A stretch of DNA of 64,000 bases from a virus, in UHGV virus genome UHGV-0140522. One strand, written 5' to 3'. This document shows, one piece after another, positions 1 through 64,000 of this stretch (position 1 is the first letter of the stretch; every line of letters begins with the position of its first letter). Under the pieces are notes generated by a model that was not told the DNA's origin, ran no database searches, and worked only from the letters and a program-made list of their open reading frames with translations. Position numbers and translations under genes: made by a program.

Positions 1-325
1 TATCCACTGTGGAGAGCAGAACCGGTTGGCTGGATTTACTATCCACTGTGGAGAGTAGATATCTGCTGAAAACAGTGAAGGTTTACTCTCCATAGTGGAT
101 ACCCGCTGGAGAGCGCATTCCATCACTCTCTATAGTGGTTGTTTGCTGCGAATGAACGCCTGTTTACTCCCTACAGTGGATAGCGACGTCGATAATCTCC
201 ACTTTACTCACTACAGTGGATACCGGATGTCACGGCAGGCGTTTTACTCACTACAGTGGTTATGGGCCGGATACGCACGCGGTGAGCTGGCTACTCACCG
301 CAGTGGTTAGGGTTATCAGTGGATT
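1..325. repeat. Array of >=9 direct repeats, consensus roughly TTTACTCACTACAGTGGATA, spaced about 40 bp apart (AGTGG cores near 7, 46, 93, 133, 174, 214, 254, 301, 317). Candidate iterons for replication origin or packaging. The array reaches the window edge, so it may continue upstream.
   Basis: Read directly: repeated CACTGTGGAGAG / CTACAGTGGATA units with regular ~39-47 bp spacing. No ORF spans the array. Confidence 0.6.
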
Positions 326-531
326 TTCTTCAGCAGACCCCAGAGTGTCCCGGCCTTCGTCGTGAGCTTACCTGTTTCCGGATCGTACATGCGCCATTCG
401 CGACGCTGGTGGACAATGACACCGTCCTCACGTTCCAGACGTTCCAGCACGCCAGGTTGCTTAAACCCTTTGGCACGCCAGTAGCCGCTTGTTTTTTCGA
501 TTTCCAGACCTGCCAGTGTAACCGCCATCAA
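316..531 (-). CDS. hypothetical protein (71 aa)
   Basis: ORF from the track; same strand as the following gene block; no recognisable motifs. Confidence 0.3.
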   Translation of the reverse strand: MMAVTLAGLEIEKTSGYWRAKGFKQPGVLERLEREDGVIVHQRREWRMYDPETGKLTTKAGTLWGLLKKIH

Positions 532-15235: not shown

Positions 15236-17626
15236 TTACCCAAGAATGATACGAGATAGCTCAGTGACGACTGACGGCCCTAACTCTTCTACGCTGTTTA
15301 CCAGTGCGTAATTTTTGTAGTAACGCCGTGGTGCGTCGGTCAGAACGCCGATAGCCATCAAATCGATGTCACTCAACGTCTCAATTTCTTTGGTGACGGT
15401 TCGCAAATGCTGATGGAACCCATCGCCTGCAGCACATGGCGCCCCGTCGCTCATAACCAGCATGATCTTCTTGTCCTCCATTCGCCCTGCAAACAGAGTC
15501 GCCAGCTGCGCGACGCTCTCACCATCGACGTTATTGAGCAGGGGGAACGTCTCACACACGCAGCCCATGCGGGCGCGGATCTCTGGAGAGTTAGCTTTCT
15601 CATTCCAGTTTTTGATAATGGGCAGCATTAGCGCCTCGAAACGAGTAAACCCGCGCTTCGACATGGTTTCATAATCCGGACTACCAAACGTGGTAAAGCC
15701 GGTGATGATGTTAGGCACATTGATACGATCCAGAGCATCCGCAATGGTGTAGGCGCTGGCGAGTGCCAGTTGAATCTTCCTGCCGCCCATTGAGCCGGAC
15801 AAGTCGATCACCTGCTGGACGCACGCGTTCACGGCTCTGTGGTCTTCTTTCTTGCGGAATACGCGGTCGTCGTTCATTGCCAGACGATACAGGTTCGCGC
15901 CATGTATCCGCCCACGTCTCTGGCCTGGGATAAACTGAACTCGGTTGCGGCTGGCGATAGCTCGCTCTAGGTCTTTGGCCAGAGTCGAAGAAACGCCTGC
16001 TGACAGATGTTTTTCGATTTTCAGTTCAAAGAGTTTTCTACCTTCCGGAACCATGCGGTAGCGATCGACCGGTGAGTGCATTGGGATTGCGCCGAACGTC
16101 TTTCTGGTGCGCTTTACATGCTCTTCAGCCTCATCAATCAACCCGATAAAGTCGTATGAACGATCGTATGGGCGATACTCAGAAAGTGAGGTACTCATAA
16201 GCTCTTTGCTGATGGTGGCCGACAGCGCGTCTTCGGTCATTTCGCCTGTTCCGTCTTCCATCTCGTCGAGCGCCTTGAGTGCTTCCTCCAGAGTCATTTC
16301 ATCCGGAGCGGGAACAAAACCTGACTCACTGTCTTCAGGCGCTTCCGCGGCATCTTCATTTTCTTTGCCTTCGCCGTCTGTGTGATCGGCTGCGTCATCT
16401 TCCTCTTCTCCTTCTCCTTCTCCTTCTCCTTCTCCTTCTCCTTCGGACTCCCCGTGACCAGCATCAGAGTCTTCGCCGTCATCACTATCACCATCGCCAG
16501 CGGCGCCAGAGCCATAACCATCGGAGTCATCGGCGTCTTCGCGAATGCCATCACCAAGCGTTGGAGAGCCAGTGTCATCACTACTACCTTCGTCATCAGA
16601 ATCACCTGATTCCATGCCGGCATCATCGGATTCTGGGGTGTCTCCTGATTCCTCTTCGCCTGCTTCTGTATATTTACTTTCTGTATCACTAATTTCTTTA
16701 TCTTCTGTAGGTAAGTCCCTATCTACTGATTCAGGCAAATCAGAATCCCCAGACTCTTCCTCTTCTGAGGCATCATCTTCTTGTTCTTCCTTGTCGTCGT
16801 CTTCGCCTTTGGTACGCTTTGGTGCTGATTCACTATGAGTCGGTTCATCACCGGCTTCTGGGGTTTCCTCTGACTCGTCCTCACTCTTCGACGGCTTCCT
16901 AGCAGACGATTTCAGCTCTGGTAATTTGCCCTCTGGCTTGTCTTTCATATCCTGCATGATTTGGGCGATAGCAGCTGCGACCTTCACACAGTCTTCTGTG
17001 TTCGACATATTGCGAACGGCCACGTCGATCCCATGTTCTTTGAGCAAGGCTACAGGCTTATCGATGAGGTGCCAGTGTTCTTCCATAAAGTCGATGAAAG
17101 GGCTTTGGCCATCCCAGGCGCGGACGACCGGGCAAAGGAAGAATTTCAGGAACAATTCACGCTGGTTGCCGTGGCAGATTGAAACCGCCTCTGACACTTT
17201 GCCCTTGAAGTATTTGTCGATCACCAGGTTCTGTGTGGCCAGCAAATTGCGACGAGTTCCGTTGAATACCTGTCCCATTCTGCGTTCAATAAAAACGTCT
17301 TCCAGCGCGTTCCAAAGACCGGTAGACGGAGCCTTTCCTTTCTCGCGCATCTTCATTGCGACTTTCGGATCAGTAAAGAGGATATGGGCTACCTCATGGT
17401 CGAGAAAACCACGCACTGCGTTCATGAGGGTTGGCGATGCGTCGTCAGGTATAGATGGGATATTTACCAGCACTGGTTCGCCGCGCCGGTTGTAGCGGAC
17501 ATATGCTTCATTGCCTCGCTCTGCAACAGGTATCTGTTTACCTGAAAGCATCGCTACAACTCGTTTTACGCAGTCGCGGAAGTCCTGTACCTCTTTCAGC
17601 ACAGATCTGGTCATGGCTTTGGACAT
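15236..17626 (-). CDS. CobT-like von Willebrand factor A (VWA) domain protein with a very long acidic low-complexity insert (start at MSKAM)
   Basis: C-terminal VWA/MIDAS region (DLSGSMGG...); a >200-aa D/E/G/S-rich region including (GE)n; partner of the AAA+ gene. Confidence 0.7.
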   Translation of the reverse strand: MSKAMTRSVLKEVQDFRDCVKRVVAMLSGKQIPVAERGNEAYVRYNRRGEPVLVNIPSIPDDASPTLMNAVRGFLDHEVAHILFTDPKVAMKMREKGKAPSTGLWNALEDVFIERRMGQVFNGTRRNLLATQNLVIDKYFKGKVSEAVSICHGNQRELFLKFFLCPVVRAWDGQSPFIDFMEEHWHLIDKPVALLKEHGIDVAVRNMSNTEDCVKVAAAIAQIMQDMKDKPEGKLPELKSSARKPSKSEDESEETPEAGDEPTHSESAPKRTKGEDDDKEEQEDDASEEEESGDSDLPESVDRDLPTEDKEISDTESKYTEAGEEESGDTPESDDAGMESGDSDDEGSSDDTGSPTLGDGIREDADDSDGYGSGAAGDGDSDDGEDSDAGHGESEGEGEGEGEGEGEEEDDAADHTDGEGKENEDAAEAPEDSESGFVPAPDEMTLEEALKALDEMEDGTGEMTEDALSATISKELMSTSLSEYRPYDRSYDFIGLIDEAEEHVKRTRKTFGAIPMHSPVDRYRMVPEGRKLFELKIEKHLSAGVSSTLAKDLERAIASRNRVQFIPGQRRGRIHGANLYRLAMNDDRVFRKKEDHRAVNACVQQVIDLSGSMGGRKIQLALASAYTIADALDRINVPNIITGFTTFGSPDYETMSKRGFTRFEALMLPIIKNWNEKANSPEIRARMGCVCETFPLLNNVDGESVAQLATLFAGRMEDKKIMLVMSDGAPCAAGDGFHQHLRTVTKEIETLSDIDLMAIGVLTDAPRRYYKNYALVNSVEELGPSVVTELSRIILG
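16401..16443. repeat. (CTCCTT)n hexanucleotide microsatellite encoding (GE)n within the VWA gene
   Basis: About 6-7 tandem in-frame copies read directly. Confidence 0.7.
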
Positions 17627-24723: not shown

Positions 24724-24798
24724 TGGCGATGGTGGGTGGACTCGAACCACCGACCAGTTGATTAACAGTCAACCGCTCTACCACTGAGCTACACCATC
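24724..24798 (-). tRNA. tRNA-Asn (anticodon GTT), CCA encoded
   Basis: Cloverleaf: acceptor GATGGTG/CACCATC, D-arm GCTCAGTGGTAGAGC, anticodon loop CTGTTAA, T-arm GGTGGTTCGAGTCCACC, discriminator G, CCA. Confidence 0.9.
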
Positions 24799-33912: not shown

Positions 33913-35616
33913 TTAAATTGTTTTAATAATATACCTTACCCTAAATTCATTTAAAGAAGACAATTTAGAAATCCTTACAAGTGCATCTTTGGCCTTTCTG
34001 GTTATCTGCTCTTGCTCACTGGTGGGATTAGTTAAGTTGTCAAATTTTAACAGACCATTTTTGACTAGATTCATCACATCTCGTTCACATGTTGTCATCC
34101 AATTGAAATAGTCATCCTCACTAAAATTATTCAAAGCATCAACATCTCTTGGGTTATAAGAATTGCCTGCACTTAGCTTAATTAGTATATCTTCTAAAGA
34201 AATCCCTTCATATTTAAGTGCAACGATTCGATTTTTAATGACACTTGACAATTTTTCAAAATTTATATGTGCATCTATTAAATCTGAATACGCTAAATTT
34301 ATATCACATCTTTCGAAAAATGCATCAGTATATTTCGTAATGTAGTCGTCACAATCTTCCCCTAGAGATTCCAACATTTCCATTAAACTGGATACCCTAC
34401 CCAATGGAAGATCACAAAGATTTTCTTCAAATAGCTTTTTAATTTCAGAAATAAAAACAAAATCATTCTTTGCAAAGGACCCAGTATAAATAGCCCAAAC
34501 ATCATTAACTTTATTATTCAATGTGATATTAGTATAATCTTTATTCTTCTTTTGGATTACTTCACCAAGATTACTTGCAGCGATTTTATAACCATGTTTT
34601 AGATGAAAGTCAATATCATCATCAAACACACCATCGCATCTATTAAAAACATCTTCGACATTACCTACAAATAGATGCACAGGTGTTTTGTTATCTACTT
34701 CATCGTCTGGAATGTAGTATGCATTTGTATTAATGAGAGTTTTGAACTCTTCGTAATCGACGTCATGAACCCCAGAATAGTAGACAAATGAAAATAAAGC
34801 TACTCTATTGACAAAGTCAGCTCTAACCTGTTCATGTGCTTCGCAAAGGTCTTTTTCATATTCTGCAAGCATATTTTTAATTTTAATTAATATCCGAATG
34901 TTTTTAATATCCAAATGCAATACAATTTCTTTTAAATATTTATAGTTTTTATCATTTTTAAAAAAAACTTTATCCAGGTTATCAATGGCCATTGGGGAAA
35001 ACATAATATCTAGATCTACAATTTTCTCTCTGTACTCTGAGAATTGTTTTTCCTCTTTTGTCCCCTTGAGATTGTTTTCATTATAAACCAGTATTATTTT
35101 ACAGTTTTTCTTTCGGGCTAACTCATCAATCAACCCCATGATATCCTTTATCTCTAAAGAGTTACCTTTTCTTTCTAAATCGTCAAAACAAATTACATAA
35201 TCCTTTACAAACGAATATTCAACAGCCGAAACAAAATTTCCCGCTCTAAAACCTATAGACGTATTGTCGAAATATTTTATAATGAACTTAGATAATCTAT
35301 TATATTTTAAACAATAACAAATTTTGGAAAGGAATTTCCCATTCACTATTTTATCTTGTTCGACAAGTGTCTGCCTATACTTTTTTTCATTTATTGGAGT
35401 CGCCAAATGAAATATTTCTTTCTTAATTTCATTTATTGAGTTTTTTCCAAAAAGAGAAATATATGAGTAAGCACTTTTATTTAGCGAATTAACATTTTTG
35501 TGATAGTACCCATTCCAAAAATGTGTTTTCCCTATCCCCCAATCACCTTTTATTACAGCAACCTTATTGTCTGAATTGAAAAAAGTGTTTAAGACTTCAT
35601 CCAAATTTATCATCAT
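33913..35616 (-). CDS. KAP-family P-loop NTPase (very AT-rich, Lys/Asn/Ile-rich)
   Basis: N-terminal GDWGIGKT Walker A and ICFDDLER Walker B are hallmark KAP NTPase motifs; composition is sharply lower in GC than the flanks. Confidence 0.7.
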   Translation of the reverse strand: MMINLDEVLNTFFNSDNKVAVIKGDWGIGKTHFWNGYYHKNVNSLNKSAYSYISLFGKNSINEIKKEIFHLATPINEKKYRQTLVEQDKIVNGKFLSKICYCLKYNRLSKFIIKYFDNTSIGFRAGNFVSAVEYSFVKDYVICFDDLERKGNSLEIKDIMGLIDELARKKNCKIILVYNENNLKGTKEEKQFSEYREKIVDLDIMFSPMAIDNLDKVFFKNDKNYKYLKEIVLHLDIKNIRILIKIKNMLAEYEKDLCEAHEQVRADFVNRVALFSFVYYSGVHDVDYEEFKTLINTNAYYIPDDEVDNKTPVHLFVGNVEDVFNRCDGVFDDDIDFHLKHGYKIAASNLGEVIQKKNKDYTNITLNNKVNDVWAIYTGSFAKNDFVFISEIKKLFEENLCDLPLGRVSSLMEMLESLGEDCDDYITKYTDAFFERCDINLAYSDLIDAHINFEKLSSVIKNRIVALKYEGISLEDILIKLSAGNSYNPRDVDALNNFSEDDYFNWMTTCERDVMNLVKNGLLKFDNLTNPTSEQEQITRKAKDALVRISKLSSLNEFRVRYIIKTI

Positions 35617-35664: not shown

Positions 35665-36024
35665 TTAACCTTTCTTCATCAGCTCACGCTTGATTTCATC
35701 GGTGCGCATCGTGACGTCGGCAGCGGTGATCGCCTCGTTCAGTTTCACGATGTCTTCGATTTCCTGCGGCGACTTCTCTGCCAGATGGAAAATGGCTGCG
35801 CGAATCACGTCAGAACGGGTGAACTTCTCGAAACGAGGGATGAACTTCATCATCTCCAGCAGATCGAAGTACTCGTCTTCCAGCGACATTGTGCGGCTCT
35901 TAATCTTCTCTTTCCCACGAGTCGGACGCCCCTGCGGTCTGACTGGCTGGCGCATTGGGGTGCTGCTTTTTACCGGTTCTTCCGGATCTTTGCGCTTTGC
36001 AAGGTCTCCCATTCTCATGGACAT
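35665..36024 (-). CDS. small partition protein, ParB/ParG-like partner of ParA (119 aa)
   Basis: Translationally coupled (ATGA) downstream of parA; basic N-terminus plus a helical C-terminus, typical of type Ib centromere-binding proteins. Confidence 0.5.
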   Translation of the reverse strand: MSMRMGDLAKRKDPEEPVKSSTPMRQPVRPQGRPTRGKEKIKSRTMSLEDEYFDLLEMMKFIPRFEKFTRSDVIRAAIFHLAEKSPQEIEDIVKLNEAITAADVTMRTDEIKRELMKKG

Positions 36025-36689
36025 TATTCTTCCTCCAGACTCATGATGTAATCTACAAACTCTTCAAACTCGGCTTCTGCCTTCTTATCGCGTTCGGCGC
36101 CAGTCATTTCAAAGATAGAACGACCTGCCTCTTCCGCATCGTCATAAACGTTACGGTTGTACAGGTTAACCGGCGCAGCCTCGATGCCGAATGTCTCGAC
36201 AATTTCTTTCGCCGCCAGAATACGTGACGCCTGGGAAGGCAGTGACGGACACTGGTTCACTACCGCGCGGATCTTCACAGTCTCGTTCACGTTGCGAACG
36301 TTGTCGATAATCGGGTCGATATCACGCAGGGATTTCAAATCACGACGCTTAGGGCGAAGCGGGATAATGATGAAGTCTGCCAGCAGCATCGCTTGTCGCT
36401 GAATTTCGGAGTCAAAACCACCCGCATCAATGACGACGTAATCGTAGCGTCCCTTCAGCGATTTGATGTGTTTGACGATGTCGTCCTGAACGTATGCGAA
36501 CGGGATTAGCTCAAGATCTTCGTTCTGGCGACGGTCTTCGCACCAGCTCGTTGTGGTGCGCTGAATATCAATGTCGGTGACGTGAGTCTTCTTTTTCTTT
36601 TTAACTTTGAGGCATACCGCAATTTGCTGGGCAACGGTAGATTTGCCTGGGCCGCCTTTTGTGCCGCCAACCACAATGATCCTGGTCAT
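36024..36689 (-). CDS. parA: ParA/Soj-family partition ATPase (short type Ib form)
   Basis: Deviant Walker A GGTKGGPGKST at the N-terminus; 221 aa; AAGGGAA RBS. Confidence 0.85.
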   Translation of the reverse strand: MTRIIVVGGTKGGPGKSTVAQQIAVCLKVKKKKKTHVTDIDIQRTTTSWCEDRRQNEDLELIPFAYVQDDIVKHIKSLKGRYDYVVIDAGGFDSEIQRQAMLLADFIIIPLRPKRRDLKSLRDIDPIIDNVRNVNETVKIRAVVNQCPSLPSQASRILAAKEIVETFGIEAAPVNLYNRNVYDDAEEAGRSIFEMTGAERDKKAEAEFEEFVDYIMSLEEE

Positions 36690-36934
36690 TGGTGAGTTCC
36701 CTTTGCGTGAATTATTGTCGTATGAAACAACTTGTTTTCTTATATGCGATATAGCCTAAATGCCTACGGCTACGGTGTAAAGGTGAAATGATAGGCAATG
36801 CAGGGTGTTAGCTCACAGAGCAAACTAACAGTTGAATGTTTGGCCAATCAGCCTTATAGTGAATGTACGGAAAGACGCCGTACATATGACGGGTTTGACC
36901 GATAATATTATTGATGCTTGAAATGACTATATAA

Positions 36935-44492: not shown

Positions 44493-47400
44493 TTAGCTAA
44501 TAACAATACCTGAAGTACTCTTTTTAACGACTATCACTAATAGGTCGCTGACACGAGATCGAGGCCAACCTCCACTGTTTCCTCTTGTACTTGCAGTAAA
44601 TGTCAGTGTTTTGGCACCACGACCTGCAGGCATGTCAAAAATCGCATTATAACATTCCTGCTTCCCTGAACTTGTTGCCTGATAAATCAGTGACCCGTTA
44701 TGAGTAACTTTAAAAGTACATTCATCCCAGACATCGTTACTCGTATTACTTTCATATGAGCTTCCCGAAAATAAAATGGGTGGAATAATTATCTGTCGGT
44801 CAAAAGATTGATCGTCATGAACAGTGACGGTCAGACTTCCGTTAGCATATAAATACTCCCCTGTTGTCGGGTTTTTAAAGTGAGGAAACTCCCTACCCGC
44901 TGCTTTAACAACATCGCCTATGATCTTTTCAGCTCTTAGCGTGCCATTAATGATACATGTGTCAGCGATAGTGACGTGGTTCAGCGTGCCAGAATTAGCA
45001 TCTACATTTCCCCTGAATGTTCCGTTGCAAAACTCGGCTGTTCCATCTTTACGAATACTCCATCCGGATCTTCCTGAAACATAGTCATTTGACTGAATCA
45101 CGTTGCCAATCTTGGCATTACTGATCGTCCCGTCTTTAATCCATGCTCCATTCATATAAGCAACACCGTTCTCTATGACAAACGGCGTGGTGATCTTCCC
45201 GTTTACGGAGTTTACCAGGCCAAAACGGTCTGCCTGAACCAAAAACTGCGATAGACCGGTGCTGTCGATACCCAGCGCGATACCTGCAACGTACTTCTGG
45301 CCGCCACTGGTAGACGTTTCCATCTTCAGCGTCCAGGCAGCAGAAACCTTCTTATCGGTATCAGCAATGGCCTTCGCCTGCTCCTGGATGAGAGCCGAGT
45401 TACCATCAACTTCAGCCTTAACCGTATCAATTCTCTTACCGAGAGCACCGTCAGCGTTTGCACGCGCGGTGGCTTCGGATGTGATAGCAGCGTTGATATC
45501 TTTGCCGGTCTGAGCCTGAAGATTGGTGATCTGCCCGGCCAGAGCAGAGTCGGCATCGGTACGCGCTTTCGTCTCCGTGGCAACGGCAGCCTTGATGTCC
45601 TCTGCCGTCTGAGCCTTCAGCGAACTGATCTGCGAAGCCAGAGCACCATCTGCATCGGTTCGAGCCTGGGTCTCTGCCGCAACGGCTGCTTTGATATCCT
45701 CACCAGTCTGGGCCTTCAGTTGGGTGATTTGCTTCGATAGCGCCTCATCCGCTGTGGCTCGGGCAATCTGCTCTTCAGTGAGTGCCGCGCTGATATCCCC
45801 TTCAACTTTCGCCTGCAACGTGGTGATCTGACGAGAAAGCGCTTCGTCCGCAGTCGCACGCGCCTCTTGTTCAGCAACAATGGCCGCTGAGATATCGTCG
45901 TTGAGCTGGGCTTCCAGCTTGGAGATATGCGTCGCAATAGCCTTATCAGCCTCTACGCGAGCCGTTGTCTCTTCCAGAATCGATGCCCGGATGTCCTCAC
46001 CAATTTCTGCGCGGATCTCTTCCACTTTTGAGGCCATTGCAGACATATCGTCGGCAAACGTCTTCTGAGTGGTGGCGATCTTCGCGTTATTGACCATTTG
46101 CTTGTGCTGGTCTTCATCCTGACGCAGAGCGAGGTCAATATTGGTTTTGGCCAGAGCCTCGATATTGGTCGATACTTCCGCGCTGGCGCGTTCGACTTCG
46201 GCAACGGTCTTTTTCATCTCTTCGACGGCGGCAACGCTGTCATCGACGGAGGATTTCATTGCCTCAATCTGTTTGGCATTTGCCTTATCGCCTTCGACAC
46301 GGGCTTCACGCTCTTCAGCAATCAGCGCGGAGGCATTGTCGAGCGCAGCGTGTGCCGCTTCCACAGCACCTGCAACGGCTTTGCCCTGCTCGGAAACGGT
46401 CTCCTGCAACTCAACCAGAGCCGCATTAGAGTCCTCAACCTGTTGCAGCGCGTCGTTGACCTTGTCCAGCGTGCCAGAGACTTCATTTTTGAGGTCGTTC
46501 TGGGCCTGTTCAAGCCGACCGCTGGTGTCTTCCAGTTTGCTGTCCAGATCGGCAACGGACTGATCAAGCTCTTTCAGGCTTTCTTCCATCTGTTTGTTGA
46601 TGGCGTCGACCGCATCCTGAGAGGCTTTAGAGTCGATTTCCTCCAGCAGCTCCTGTCCCAGCTCGGAAGAGGTGATCTTCCCGGTAAGGAATGAGAGGAC
46701 GTCTCGCGTCATCGCTTCCGTACCCAGATTGGAGTTCGGCGGGCTTAACATGCCACGCTTGTTCACCGCGCGAACCCAATAGTACCAGGTCTCGCTATCC
46801 CCAAGACCGGCATGGGTGAACGTGGTGCTGGCAGCCTCTGCAATCAACTTTGCCGTTTCCAGATCGTTGGTCTGGGAGGCGTACACGTTGATGTGATCGA
46901 GGTCGATTGAGTCCGGGTTGACCCAATTCAGAATCACGTTGCGGTAGTCACCAACGGCCGTCAGAGAGGTAGGAGAGCCTGGCGGCGTCATCGTACCTTT
47001 CACCTGGTAAACGGTACTGATGATGTCCGTCTTCTTGCCGCTGAACGAAACCGCATAGAGCTGAATGTCGTATTGGCCATTCTCGGCAATATTGAGGATC
47101 TCGAACTGCTCTTCGGTAACGCGTGCGGACTGCCAGTTAGAGACGTTGTTCTCATCGGAACGACGCCAGCTGATCCAATATTCCGCAGACTTACCTTCCC
47201 AGGTGGCAACGAGCTTGATTGAGAGGTTGCCCGGACTGGAGATATACGTCCCTTCCGTCACCTGCAGGTTGGTCGGCTTCGAATAAGTCGGGTCGAGAAC
47301 GGTGTTGTTCTCGGGGATCAGCGTCGCGCCGTTGTCGATGGCTTCGTACTTCGATGCGTTATTCTGGACAACGGTAACGTCAAACGTCCCCTGAGCCTCG

Positions 47401-63319: not shown

Positions 63320-64000
63320 TCACTCGGTCTCTTGAGTAGATGAGTCCCCATTCCCTCGGGGTTGATCATGCCCGCTTTCTTGGGCTGTATCTTGATCATA
63401 AGTAAGTACTGACTTATTTTCAAGGGTGTTAAGATCATTTTTTGGAGGAAATTTCAAGAGATCTTTTTGAAATTCCTTCTGCATCGCATCGGAAATGTTC
63501 GGGAAGACCTTCTCGATGAGCATTTCCATCTGATGACGACGAACAGAATCAGGCGCCTGAAGCAGCGACAGTTTCTCGGCAACGGCAAACTCGTCAGTCA
63601 GACCGCGAATGTCGAAACTTTCCGGGTATGCGATCAGAGAGTGGTCTTCATCCAGTTCGACACCCATCCATTTCGCTGCCAGTTGCATCATCTGGCGCTC
63701 TGCCCTTTCGAGACGTTCTGCTTTCGTCACCAGCAGACTGTTAACGCGCTGGAAGTCGTACATCTTCGCTGCGCCCGAAGAGTTATCGATGCCCTGTGCG
63801 TTATCCTGCTTGGTTCGCTCACCTGCCACGCCAACGGAATGGTAGATCTCGTTAATCACCGTCTTAATCGTGGTGATAATCATCTGGGCCTGTTTCGGGT
63901 CCGGAGACAGGTAGAATGGCTGATTACCGCTCTCAGAGTCGAAGGTGAAGACGCGTTTTGTCCCCATTTCGAGCACTTTGGTGTGGTTTTCATCGCCCGG
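63320..64000 (-). CDS. partial structural/morphogenesis protein (5' end outside window; portal C-terminus or head morphogenesis)
   Basis: The open frame continues to the window edge with no in-frame stop. Confidence 0.4.
   Translation of the reverse strand, partial: PGDENHTKVLEMGTKRVFTFDSESGNQPFYLSPDPKQAQMIITTIKTVINEIYHSVGVAGERTKQDNAQGIDNSSGAAKMYDFQRVNSLLVTKAERLERAERQMMQLAAKWMGVELDEDHSLIAYPESFDIRGLTDEFAVAEKLSLLQAPDSVRRHQMEMLIEKVFPNISDAMQKEFQKDLLKFPPKNDLNTLENKSVLTYDQDTAQESGHDQPRGNGDSSTQETE

What the first reader, a model, noticed from the sequence alone, without database searches (positions are those of the whole stretch)
1..325. Regular ~40-bp-spaced direct-repeat array at the window start: candidate iteron origin or packaging site
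At least nine copies of a ~20-bp unit (TTTACTCACTACAGTGGATA and variants CACTGTGGAGAG) recur with 39-47 bp spacing, roughly 4 helical turns. That phasing is expected for cooperative binding of an initiator such as RepA to iterons, or a terminase small subunit to pac repeats. The array runs to the window edge, so the associated gene (repA or terS) may lie just upstream.
Basis: seen in the sequence. Interest (0 to 1): 0.6.

Follow-up and report, generated by a model that had tools for sequence, protein, structure and literature searches.

The report
Plasmid copy-control iteron array beside repA
The repeats are real binding-site repeats (iterons) for the plasmid replication initiator RepA of an SSU5/pHCM2/pMT1-type phage-plasmid. 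They form the far end of the copy-number-control array just downstream of repA, as incA does in phage P1, so this is an ordinary, well-understood kind of element.

Summary
Window 1-312 carries eight clear copies of a 20-bp motif (TTACTCNCTACAGTGGATAG) plus one or two degenerate copies. Two clear copies are in one orientation (1-19, cut by the window edge; 39-58). Six are in the other (83-310), spaced 40, 41, 40, 40 and 47 bp apart. Nothing else in the 64 kb comes close to the motif.

The window is a 97-99.9% match to Salmonella phage-plasmid SSU5 and to IncFIB-typed plasmids of the pHCM2/pMT1 family. In those relatives a repA gene (Rep_3 family, 46.5% identical to P1 RepA) ends about 250-290 bp before window position 1. 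The same motif occurs 11 times upstream of repA at 21-22 bp spacing, beside DnaA boxes and GATC clusters. That upstream region is the origin. The window array has no DnaA box and no GATC. It is the distal part of a 12-15-iteron block that starts at the repA stop codon, and its layout mirrors P1 incA and the downstream iterons of RepFIB.

Most likely function: negative control of copy number by RepA titration and origin pairing (handcuffing), and incompatibility.

The array is probably not the origin itself, and it is not a pac site: the terminase genes are at least 44 kb away.

Novelty and interest are low.

The parts
1..312 (.). Distal part of the RepA iteron array downstream of repA (incA-like copy-control locus). 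It is non-coding and cut by the window start.
   Evidence: Homologous arrays in nine relatives lie between the repA stop codon and the first minus-strand gene.
1..19 (-). Iteron in the same orientation as the origin-side iterons; its last base lies off the window edge.
   Evidence: TATCCACTGTGGAGAGCAG; 95% identical to copy 40-59 (D5). The whole copy scores 24.1 bits in the relative at L003 1309-1328 and 1348-1367.
39..58 (-). Iteron in the same orientation as the origin-side iterons.
   Evidence: 25.6 bits with both matrices.
59..78 (-). Degenerate iteron-like site.
   Evidence: 10.7 bits here. The equivalent site scores at least 14 bits in pMT1, the pHCM2-like plasmid and SSU5.
83..102 (+). 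Iteron, first of the six inverted distal copies. With 39-58 it forms an 18-nt inverted repeat, 94% complementary.
   Evidence: 24.8-25.3 bits; inverted repeat I1.
123..142 (+). Iteron, inverted distal block.
   Evidence: 21.5-24.0 bits.
164..183 (+). Iteron, inverted distal block.
   Evidence: 24.1-26.4 bits.
204..223 (+). Iteron, inverted distal block.
   Evidence: 24.1-26.4 bits.
244..263 (+). Iteron, inverted distal block. Relatives gain or lose one whole 40-41-bp unit at this point.
   Evidence: 25.5-26.1 bits; unit-sized indels in the alignment.
291..310 (+). Last iteron of the array. It overlaps an 8-bp stem, GCGGTGAG...CTCACCGC (272-279 and 295-302).
   Evidence: 20.7-23.1 bits; sequence read.
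316..531 (-). Boundary of the array: 71-aa ORF whose SSU5 and Cyrano homologues are annotated 'Cre-associated' / 'P1 Cra' protein. It is the last gene of a minus-strand operon that converges on the array.
   Evidence: ORF list; annotations in SSU5 and Cyrano; no Pfam hit.

Best explanation
Window 1-312 is the distal end of the control iteron array of a P1/RepFIB-type plasmid replicon carried by an SSU5/pHCM2/pMT1-type phage-plasmid. Each roughly 20-bp repeat is a binding site for the plasmid initiator RepA, whose gene ends about 250-290 bp before the window start. The origin lies on the other side of repA. It has DnaA boxes, a GATC cluster and the same iterons packed at 21-22 bp. The downstream array of 12-15 sites includes the 8 seen here. 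It most likely holds down copy number in two ways: it soaks up RepA (titration), and RepA-mediated pairing with the origin iterons, in cis or between sister plasmids (handcuffing), blocks initiation. The same property would make it an incompatibility determinant. What is shown here: the repeats, their specificity, their match to the origin-side motif, their conservation relative to the spacers, the layout, and the homology of RepA to P1 RepA. What is inferred by homology: RepA binding, the effect on copy number, and pairing.
For: (1) The window is 97.2% identical to SSU5 and 99.9-100% identical to the IncFIB-typed plasmid NZ_CP056422. There repA is at 1-1056 and window position 1 corresponds to 1310 or 1349. 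(2) That RepA matches Pfam Rep3_N and Rep3_C. It matches P1 RepA at 46.5% identity, E 2e-71. (3) A matrix built only from the 11 iterons upstream of repA recovers exactly the window copies at 20.7-25.6 bits, with a best of 12.5 bits elsewhere. In the other 49.6 kb of the relative, the only hits are those 11 origin-side sites. (4) The layout matches annotated P1: DnaA box, GATC sites, 5 iterons at 21-22 bp, repA, then incA starting at the stop codon. In P1 the proximal incA iterons are oriented like the origin ones and the last six are inverted. Here the first downstream iteron starts 2 nt after the stop codon, the proximal copies are oriented like the origin ones, and the last 5-7 are inverted. 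(5) Iteron columns are more conserved than spacer columns across nine relatives: 126/149 against 71/132 invariant, p = 2.5e-8. In the divergent E. coli relatives the figures are 89-94% against 71-77% identity. (6) Relatives differ by whole 39-41-bp units. These lengths are not multiples of 3, so the region is not coding. (7) PhiR41_1, whose RepA is only 49% identical, keeps the same layout at the same genomic place with a different iteron, GTATGCTGTCAGCGGT. The motif therefore follows the initiator. (8) For FIB replicons the downstream iteron block is the control element and is sufficient on its own to displace a resident plasmid (PMC11983097). A review describes iterons downstream of rep as acting by titration and handcuffing (PMC12361487).
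Against: repA and the origin are not in the window, so linkage rests on relatives that are 97-100% identical across the region. No binding, copy-number or incompatibility data exist for this replicon in anything I could read. The distal block is spaced at 40-41 bp, against 31 bp in P1. The array is longer (12-15 sites against 9) and has an extra orientation switch, so the details may differ. The iteron sequence has no decisive similarity to the P1 iteron in either orientation. No solved structure matches this RepA by sequence.
Confidence: 0.85

Rival explanations
1. The array is itself a replication origin (the main oriV or a second, alternative one). RepA would oligomerise on the phased iterons there and open the DNA.
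For: These are bona fide copies of the iteron motif in a regular phase. Some iteron plasmids have more than one origin (from my own knowledge, for example R6K).
Against: There is no DnaA box (TTATNCACA, up to 1 mismatch), no GATC and no AT-rich stretch above 67% AT in window 1-330, nor in the whole 607-bp downstream spacer of the relative. The upstream region has two perfect DnaA boxes and 11 GATC in two clusters. Origin iterons in this replicon and in P1 are packed at 21-22 bp, not 40 bp. In P1 and FIB the downstream block is inhibitory (annotation; PMC11983097).
Confidence: 0.07
2. The array is a partition centromere: phased repeats bound by a ParB-like adaptor, as in sopC of F or parC of R1.
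For: A regular array with about 40-bp periodicity recalls the 43-bp sopC repeats (from my own knowledge). The element does encode a ParA-type ATPase (window 36024-36689).
Against: The motif is the same as the sites next to the DnaA boxes and the repA start. parA is about 36 kb away, and a ParB/Srx-domain gene in the relative is about 45 kb away. Centromeres normally adjoin their par operon. When RepA changes in PhiR41_1, the motif changes with it.
Confidence: 0.03
3. The array is a pac site: phased binding sites for the small terminase subunit that start headful packaging.
For: Only the general resemblance of phased repeats to some pac sites.
Against: The large terminase gene and the adjacent DNA-binding gene are at SSU5 134-2034 and at 65686-67586 in NZ_CP056422, at least 44 kb from the array. 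They lie outside the window beyond position 64000, which corresponds to SSU5 2961. The motif is shared with the repA-flanking origin iterons.
Confidence: 0.01
4. The repeats are a chance pattern, part of a protein-coding repeat (the 71-aa ORF at 95-310), or a structured RNA.
For: An ORF of 71 aa spans 95-310. Some records annotate tiny hypothetical proteins inside their arrays.
Against: The scores are far above background. Indels of 39-41 bp among close relatives break any reading frame. Most records annotate no gene here. Rfam gives only two sub-threshold microRNA hits, caused by the inverted iterons.
Confidence: 0.01

Closest known systems
incA copy-number-control / incompatibility locus of the phage P1 plasmid replicon (oriR-repA-incA)
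   Same: The initiator is homologous (46.5% identity). The array begins at the repA stop codon. The same motif also forms the origin iterons at 21-22 bp spacing, next to a DnaA box and a GATC cluster. Proximal copies are oriented like the origin copies and the terminal six are inverted. Spacing is a near-integral number of helical turns. Both elements are phage-plasmids.
   Different: There are 12-15 sites instead of 9. The distal block is spaced at 40-41 bp instead of 31 bp. There is an extra single inverted copy and a 109-bp iteron-free gap. The iteron sequence is different. The array is followed by a convergent operon, not by parAB; parA lies about 36 kb away. The relatives carry two tandem origin-like modules upstream of repA instead of one.
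RepFIB replicon of F, P307 and pO157 (upstream iterons BCDD', downstream iterons E-K)
   Same: PLSDB/MOB-suite types these plasmids as IncFIB. rep is flanked by an origin-side block and a downstream control block of iterons. The downstream block was shown to be the inhibitory, incompatibility-exerting element (PMC11983097).
   Different: I did not compare sequences with F or P307 FIB directly. This is the separate pHCM2/pMT1 branch, carried on a phage-plasmid rather than a conjugative F-like plasmid.
incC of the mini-F RepFIA replicon (ori2-repE-incC)
   Same: It has the same logic: iterons downstream of the initiator gene pair with the origin iterons through the initiator to inhibit replication (as summarised in PMC11983097).
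   Different: The initiator lineage and iteron sequence differ. Not compared here.

Membership tests
P1/RepFIB-type iteron replicon, downstream control array (incA-like) | A Rep_3-family (winged-helix) initiator gene lies immediately upstream of the array. | tested here: met
   Met in relatives that are 97-100% identical to the window across the array. repA ends 253 bp before window position 1 in SSU5 and at position 1056 in NZ_CP056422, where window position 1 is 1310 or 1349. It matches Pfam Rep3_N at 7.4e-11 and Rep3_C at 4e-4, and P1 RepA at E 2e-71. The window itself starts after repA, so its own upstream DNA could not be read.
P1/RepFIB-type iteron replicon, downstream control array (incA-like) | The same repeat motif also forms the origin iterons on the other side of repA, next to DnaA boxes and Dam (GATC) sites. 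| tested here: met
   There are 11 origin-side copies at 21-23 bp spacing in two modules, each preceded by a perfect DnaA box and a GATC cluster. A matrix built from them recovers the window copies.
P1/RepFIB-type iteron replicon, downstream control array (incA-like) | The array is non-coding, starts at the repA stop codon, and has wider spacing than the origin iterons with mixed orientation. | tested here: met
   The first downstream iteron starts 2 nt after the stop codon. Spacing is 29-47 bp against 21-22 bp at the origin. The orientation pattern <<<<><<<>>>>>> is conserved in nine relatives. P1 shows >>> <<<<<< by the same test.
P1/RepFIB-type iteron replicon, downstream control array (incA-like) | The sites are under selection as binding sites: cores are conserved, spacers are free, and the motif co-varies with the initiator. 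| tested here: met
   Invariant columns are 126/149 in iterons against 71/132 in spacers, p = 2.5e-8. PhiR41_1, with a 49%-identical RepA, has a different iteron in the same layout.
P1/RepFIB-type iteron replicon, downstream control array (incA-like) | RepA binds the repeats; deleting the array raises copy number; the array exerts incompatibility in trans. | not testable with these tools
   This needs EMSA or footprinting, mini-replicon copy-number assays and displacement assays. It has been shown for FIB (PMC11983097) and is annotated for P1.
Replication origin (oriV) of an iteron plasmid | DnaA box(es), an AT-rich unwinding element and closely packed iterons. | tested here: not met
   Window 1-330 has 0 DnaA boxes, 0 GATC and a maximum of 67% AT in any 30 bp, with iterons 40 bp apart. 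All these features are present upstream of repA in the relative.
Phage pac site | It lies within or next to the small terminase gene and is bound by the small terminase subunit. | tested here: not met
   The terminase genes are at least 44 kb away in SSU5 and NZ_CP056422 and are not within the window. Binding is not testable.
CRISPR array | Identical direct repeats of about 28-37 bp, all in one orientation, separated by unique spacers of similar length. | tested here: not met
   The repeats are 20 bp, about 77% alike, in two orientations, with 20-27 bp between them.

The most novel reading that the evidence does not exclude
The distal inverted block gains and loses whole 39-41-bp iteron units among near-identical plasmids: 5, 6 or 7 inverted copies, 12-15 iterons in total, and one exact 39-bp tandem duplication in the closest relative. 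This array could therefore act as a fast-evolving dial that sets phage-plasmid copy number, and so the dosage of cargo genes, through recombination between iterons. A related open point is that this family carries two tandem origin-like modules upstream of repA, which the 14-site array may regulate differentially. Neither has been tested.
Probability: 0.25. Interest if true: 0.35.

Novelty: new member of a known kind. Interest (0 to 1): 0.12.

Why it matters
The result mainly closes the question: the array is the expected control locus of a known replicon type, not a new origin or packaging signal. It has some practical value. SSU5/pHCM2/pMT1-type phage-plasmids are widespread in Salmonella, Yersinia pestis, E. 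coli, Enterobacter and Citrobacter; 335 public plasmids carry this array. By analogy with FIB replicons, the downstream iteron block is the piece to clone in order to cure or displace such plasmids (PMC11983097). Variation in iteron number among relatives may also explain differences in copy number.

Tried and rejected
Tandem Repeats Finder did not report the array, because only about 20 of each 40 bp repeat and the orientation switches.

Rfam with permissive thresholds gave only two sub-threshold microRNA hairpin hits, caused by the inverted iterons.

The promoter and terminator scan of 1-700 found nothing above shuffle expectation in the array.

A sequence search of RepA against PDB found no match, so no structural argument was made.

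I compared P1 and SSU5-type iteron profiles to see whether the motifs are alignable. The best same-strand score (6.64 expected matches of 19) barely exceeds the reverse-strand score (6.29). I therefore make no claim of iteron sequence homology, only that the relative orientation pattern is the same.

I could not read the 1998 pMT1 sequence papers; my guessed PMC ids are not held. I also could not read the 2026 bioRxiv preprint on phage-plasmid heteroresistance. That preprint mentions repA 41 times, copy number 20 times, and pHCM2 and pMT1 4 times each. Whether these iterons have been described in print remains unverified.

The pac-site, centromere, coding and CRISPR readings were considered and rejected, as set out under the rival explanations and membership tests.

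Full report
**What is in the sequence**

Window 1-312 contains a cluster of a roughly 20-bp motif with consensus TTACTCNCTACAGTGGATAG.
- A matrix built from the window copies scores whole copies at 39-58 (minus orientation) and at 83-102, 123-142, 164-183, 204-223, 244-263 and 291-310 (plus orientation) at 21.5-26.4 bits. The next best site in the remaining 63.7 kb, on either strand, scores 13.1 bits.
- One more minus-orientation copy occupies 1-19 and loses its last base to the window edge.
- Two degenerate sites, 59-78 and 99-118, score about 10-11 bits.
- Spacing is 39 bp, then 44 bp across the orientation switch, then 40, 41, 40, 40 and 47 bp.
- A 12-mer core search with up to 2 mismatches finds 8 sites in the window against 2.85 expected, and 6 of them lie within 1-262.

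It needs three corrections:
- There are eight clear copies rather than at least nine.
- The copies have two orientations, so this is not a purely direct array.
- The period is about 3.8-3.9 helical turns.

**What the window is**

The first 3 kb are 97.2% identical to Salmonella phage SSU5, a phage-plasmid. They are 99.9% identical to Citrobacter plasmid pRHBSTW-00524_2 (NZ_CP056422), which is typed IncFIB. The array alone is 100% identical to that plasmid. It is found in 335 plasmid records from Escherichia, Enterobacter, Yersinia (pFra/pMT1, 93.9%), Salmonella (pHCM2-like, 86%) and Citrobacter. The far end of the window maps to SSU5 position 2961. The window therefore covers the SSU5-like genome from just downstream of repA to just short of the terminase genes.

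**What lies just outside the window**

In SSU5, phage Cyrano and seven plasmids, a repA gene lies immediately upstream of the window start and is transcribed towards the array.
- In NZ_CP056422, repA is at 1-1056 and window position 1 corresponds to 1310 or 1349. The ambiguity arises because that plasmid carries an exact extra 39-bp unit.
- The protein matches Pfam Rep3_N and Rep3_C.
- By tblastn it is 46.5% identical to P1 RepA, E 2e-71.

**The full replicon in the relative**

- Upstream of repA are two similar modules. Each has a perfect DnaA box (TTATTCACA or TTATACACA), a cluster of GATC sites (11 in the 745-bp spacer), and then 5 or 6 iterons at 21-23 bp spacing.
- All these upstream iterons share one orientation. 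The last one ends 38 bp before the repA start.
- Downstream, the first iteron begins 2 nt after the stop codon. The array reads <<<< (109-bp gap) > <<< >>>>>>. The window holds the last two '<' copies and all six '>' copies.
- A matrix built only from the 11 upstream iterons, none of them in the window, recovers the window copies at 20.7-25.6 bits, with a best of 12.5 bits elsewhere.
- In the other 49.6 kb of the plasmid, the window-derived matrix finds only those 11 sites.
- The motif is therefore confined to the two flanks of repA.

**Comparison with P1**

The annotated P1 record gives a DnaA box, five Dam sites, five incC iterons at 21-22 bp, PrepA, repA, and then nine incA iterons starting at the last base of repA. 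Reading the sequences shows that incA copies 9-7 are oriented like the origin iterons and copies 6-1 are inverted, with spacings of 31 or 40-41 bp. The element here has the same plan, including a terminal block of inverted copies. It differs in three ways: more sites (12-15 against 9), a distal period of 40-41 bp instead of 31 bp, and an extra single inverted copy. The iteron sequences themselves are not convincingly alignable.

**Evidence that the repeats are functional sites**

- In an alignment of the window with eight relatives, 126 of 149 iteron columns are invariant against 71 of 132 spacer columns (p = 2.5e-8). In the divergent E. coli relatives, iteron positions are 89-94% identical to the window and spacers 71-77%.
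- Within the window, the six plus-orientation cores are 77% alike pairwise and the spacers 32% alike.
- Relatives differ by whole units of 39-41 bp, giving 5, 6 or 7 distal copies and 12-15 in total. This rules out a conserved reading frame and fits recombination between repeats.
- In PhiR41_1, an SSU5-supergroup phage-plasmid whose RepA is only 49% identical, the same genomic position has the same layout: a GATC-rich region and iterons at 21 bp upstream, and at least 8 iterons between repA and the same downstream gene. The iteron there is different, GTATGCTGTCAGCGGT. The motif changes with the initiator, as expected for initiator-binding sites.

**Why this is the control locus and not the origin**

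The window array and the entire 607-bp spacer downstream of repA have no GATC and no DnaA box. Their richest 30-bp stretch is 67% AT. The origin hallmarks are all upstream of repA. In FIB replicons the upstream iterons are associated with the origin and the downstream block with control, and the downstream block alone is enough to displace a resident plasmid (PMC11983097). A recent review describes iterons downstream of rep as acting by titration and handcuffing (PMC12361487). The P1 record annotates incA as an incompatibility determinant made of RepA-binding iterons. From my own knowledge of the P1 literature (Chattoraj and colleagues), deleting incA raises P1 copy number several-fold. I could not read those papers here.

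**Mechanism proposed**

RepA monomers bind each 20-bp core. The 12-15 downstream sites compete with the origin sites for RepA. RepA-RepA contacts pair the array with origin iterons on the same or a sister molecule, which blocks opening of the origin until growth dilutes the complexes. The near-integral helical phasing would place bound RepA on roughly one face of the DNA, which favours pairing. Site identity, layout and homology are shown here. Binding, titration, pairing and the role of phasing are inferred.

**Rivals**

- A pac site is excluded for practical purposes. terL and the adjacent DNA-binding gene are at SSU5 134-2034 and at NZ_CP056422 65686-67586, at least 44 kb from the array either way round the circle.
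- A partition centromere is unlikely. The motif is the repA-flanking iteron, and parA is at window 36024-36689.
- Coding, RNA and chance explanations fail.
- A second origin cannot be excluded without an experiment, but it lacks every origin hallmark.

**Verdict**

This is a correct observation of a known kind of element. The array is a new, or at least here newly mapped, member of the P1 incA / RepFIB downstream-iteron class. Interest is low. The only mildly open points are the unit-number polymorphism and the duplicated origin module in this plasmid family.

Noticed in passing
L004 2400-3084 (NZ_CP056422 111899-112583); SSU5 L001 6000-6650: Upstream of repA there are two tandem origin-like modules rather than the single one in P1. 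Each has a perfect DnaA box, a GATC cluster and 5-6 iterons at 21-22 bp. Which one fires, or whether both do, is unknown.
   Followed up: partly
L003 1309-1386 (NZ_CP056422) versus window 1-39: The closest relative carries an exact tandem duplication of the 39-bp iteron-plus-spacer unit that begins the window. The window is cut exactly at a unit boundary, so its own copy number cannot be read. Relatives have 5, 6 or 7 distal inverted iterons.
   Followed up: partly
L003 1179-1267 (just upstream of the window in the relative): A 109-bp iteron-free gap inside the downstream array contains two GTTAGTGGTYAC half-site-like motifs. It is conserved at 109 bp in all nine relatives. Purpose unknown.
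   Followed up: no
window 39-58 and other iterons: The iteron core CTATCCACT matches the DnaA-box consensus TTATCCACA at 7 of 9 positions. Whether DnaA binds the iterons weakly is untested.
   Followed up: no
window 33913-35616 (-): A 567-aa ORF lies in a low-GC island (34% GC over 34-36 kb). It has a KAP-family P-loop NTPase domain and matches the PADLOC candidate defence family PDC-S49 at E 3e-22.
   Followed up: partly
window 36024-36689 (-): A ParA/MipZ-type ATPase gene lies about 36 kb from the replicon, unlike P1 where parAB directly follows incA. ARAGORN also calls an 81-nt tRNA-Lys at 36621-36701 (+) overlapping the start of this gene, which may be spurious.
   Followed up: no
window 24724-24798 (-): A tRNA-Asn (GTT) is predicted, apparently matching the tRNA-Asn annotated in SSU5.
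   Followed up: no
window 45527-45719: A 99-bp tandem repeat is present in 1.9 copies at 76% match. By collinearity with SSU5 it probably lies inside the tape-measure gene; this was not checked. There is also a perfect CTTCTC x6.7 run at 16405-16444.
   Followed up: no
L003 1-1056 (RepA of the relative): This RepA is 351-354 aa. The match to P1 RepA covers only residues 40-307. The extra N- and C-terminal segments include an acidic C-terminal tail visible in the SSU5 sequence.
   Followed up: no
window 272-302: An 8-bp perfect stem, GCGGTGAG(7 nt)CTCACCGC, overlaps the last iteron where the two convergent transcription units meet. No T-run follows, and the terminator scan did not call it.
   Followed up: no
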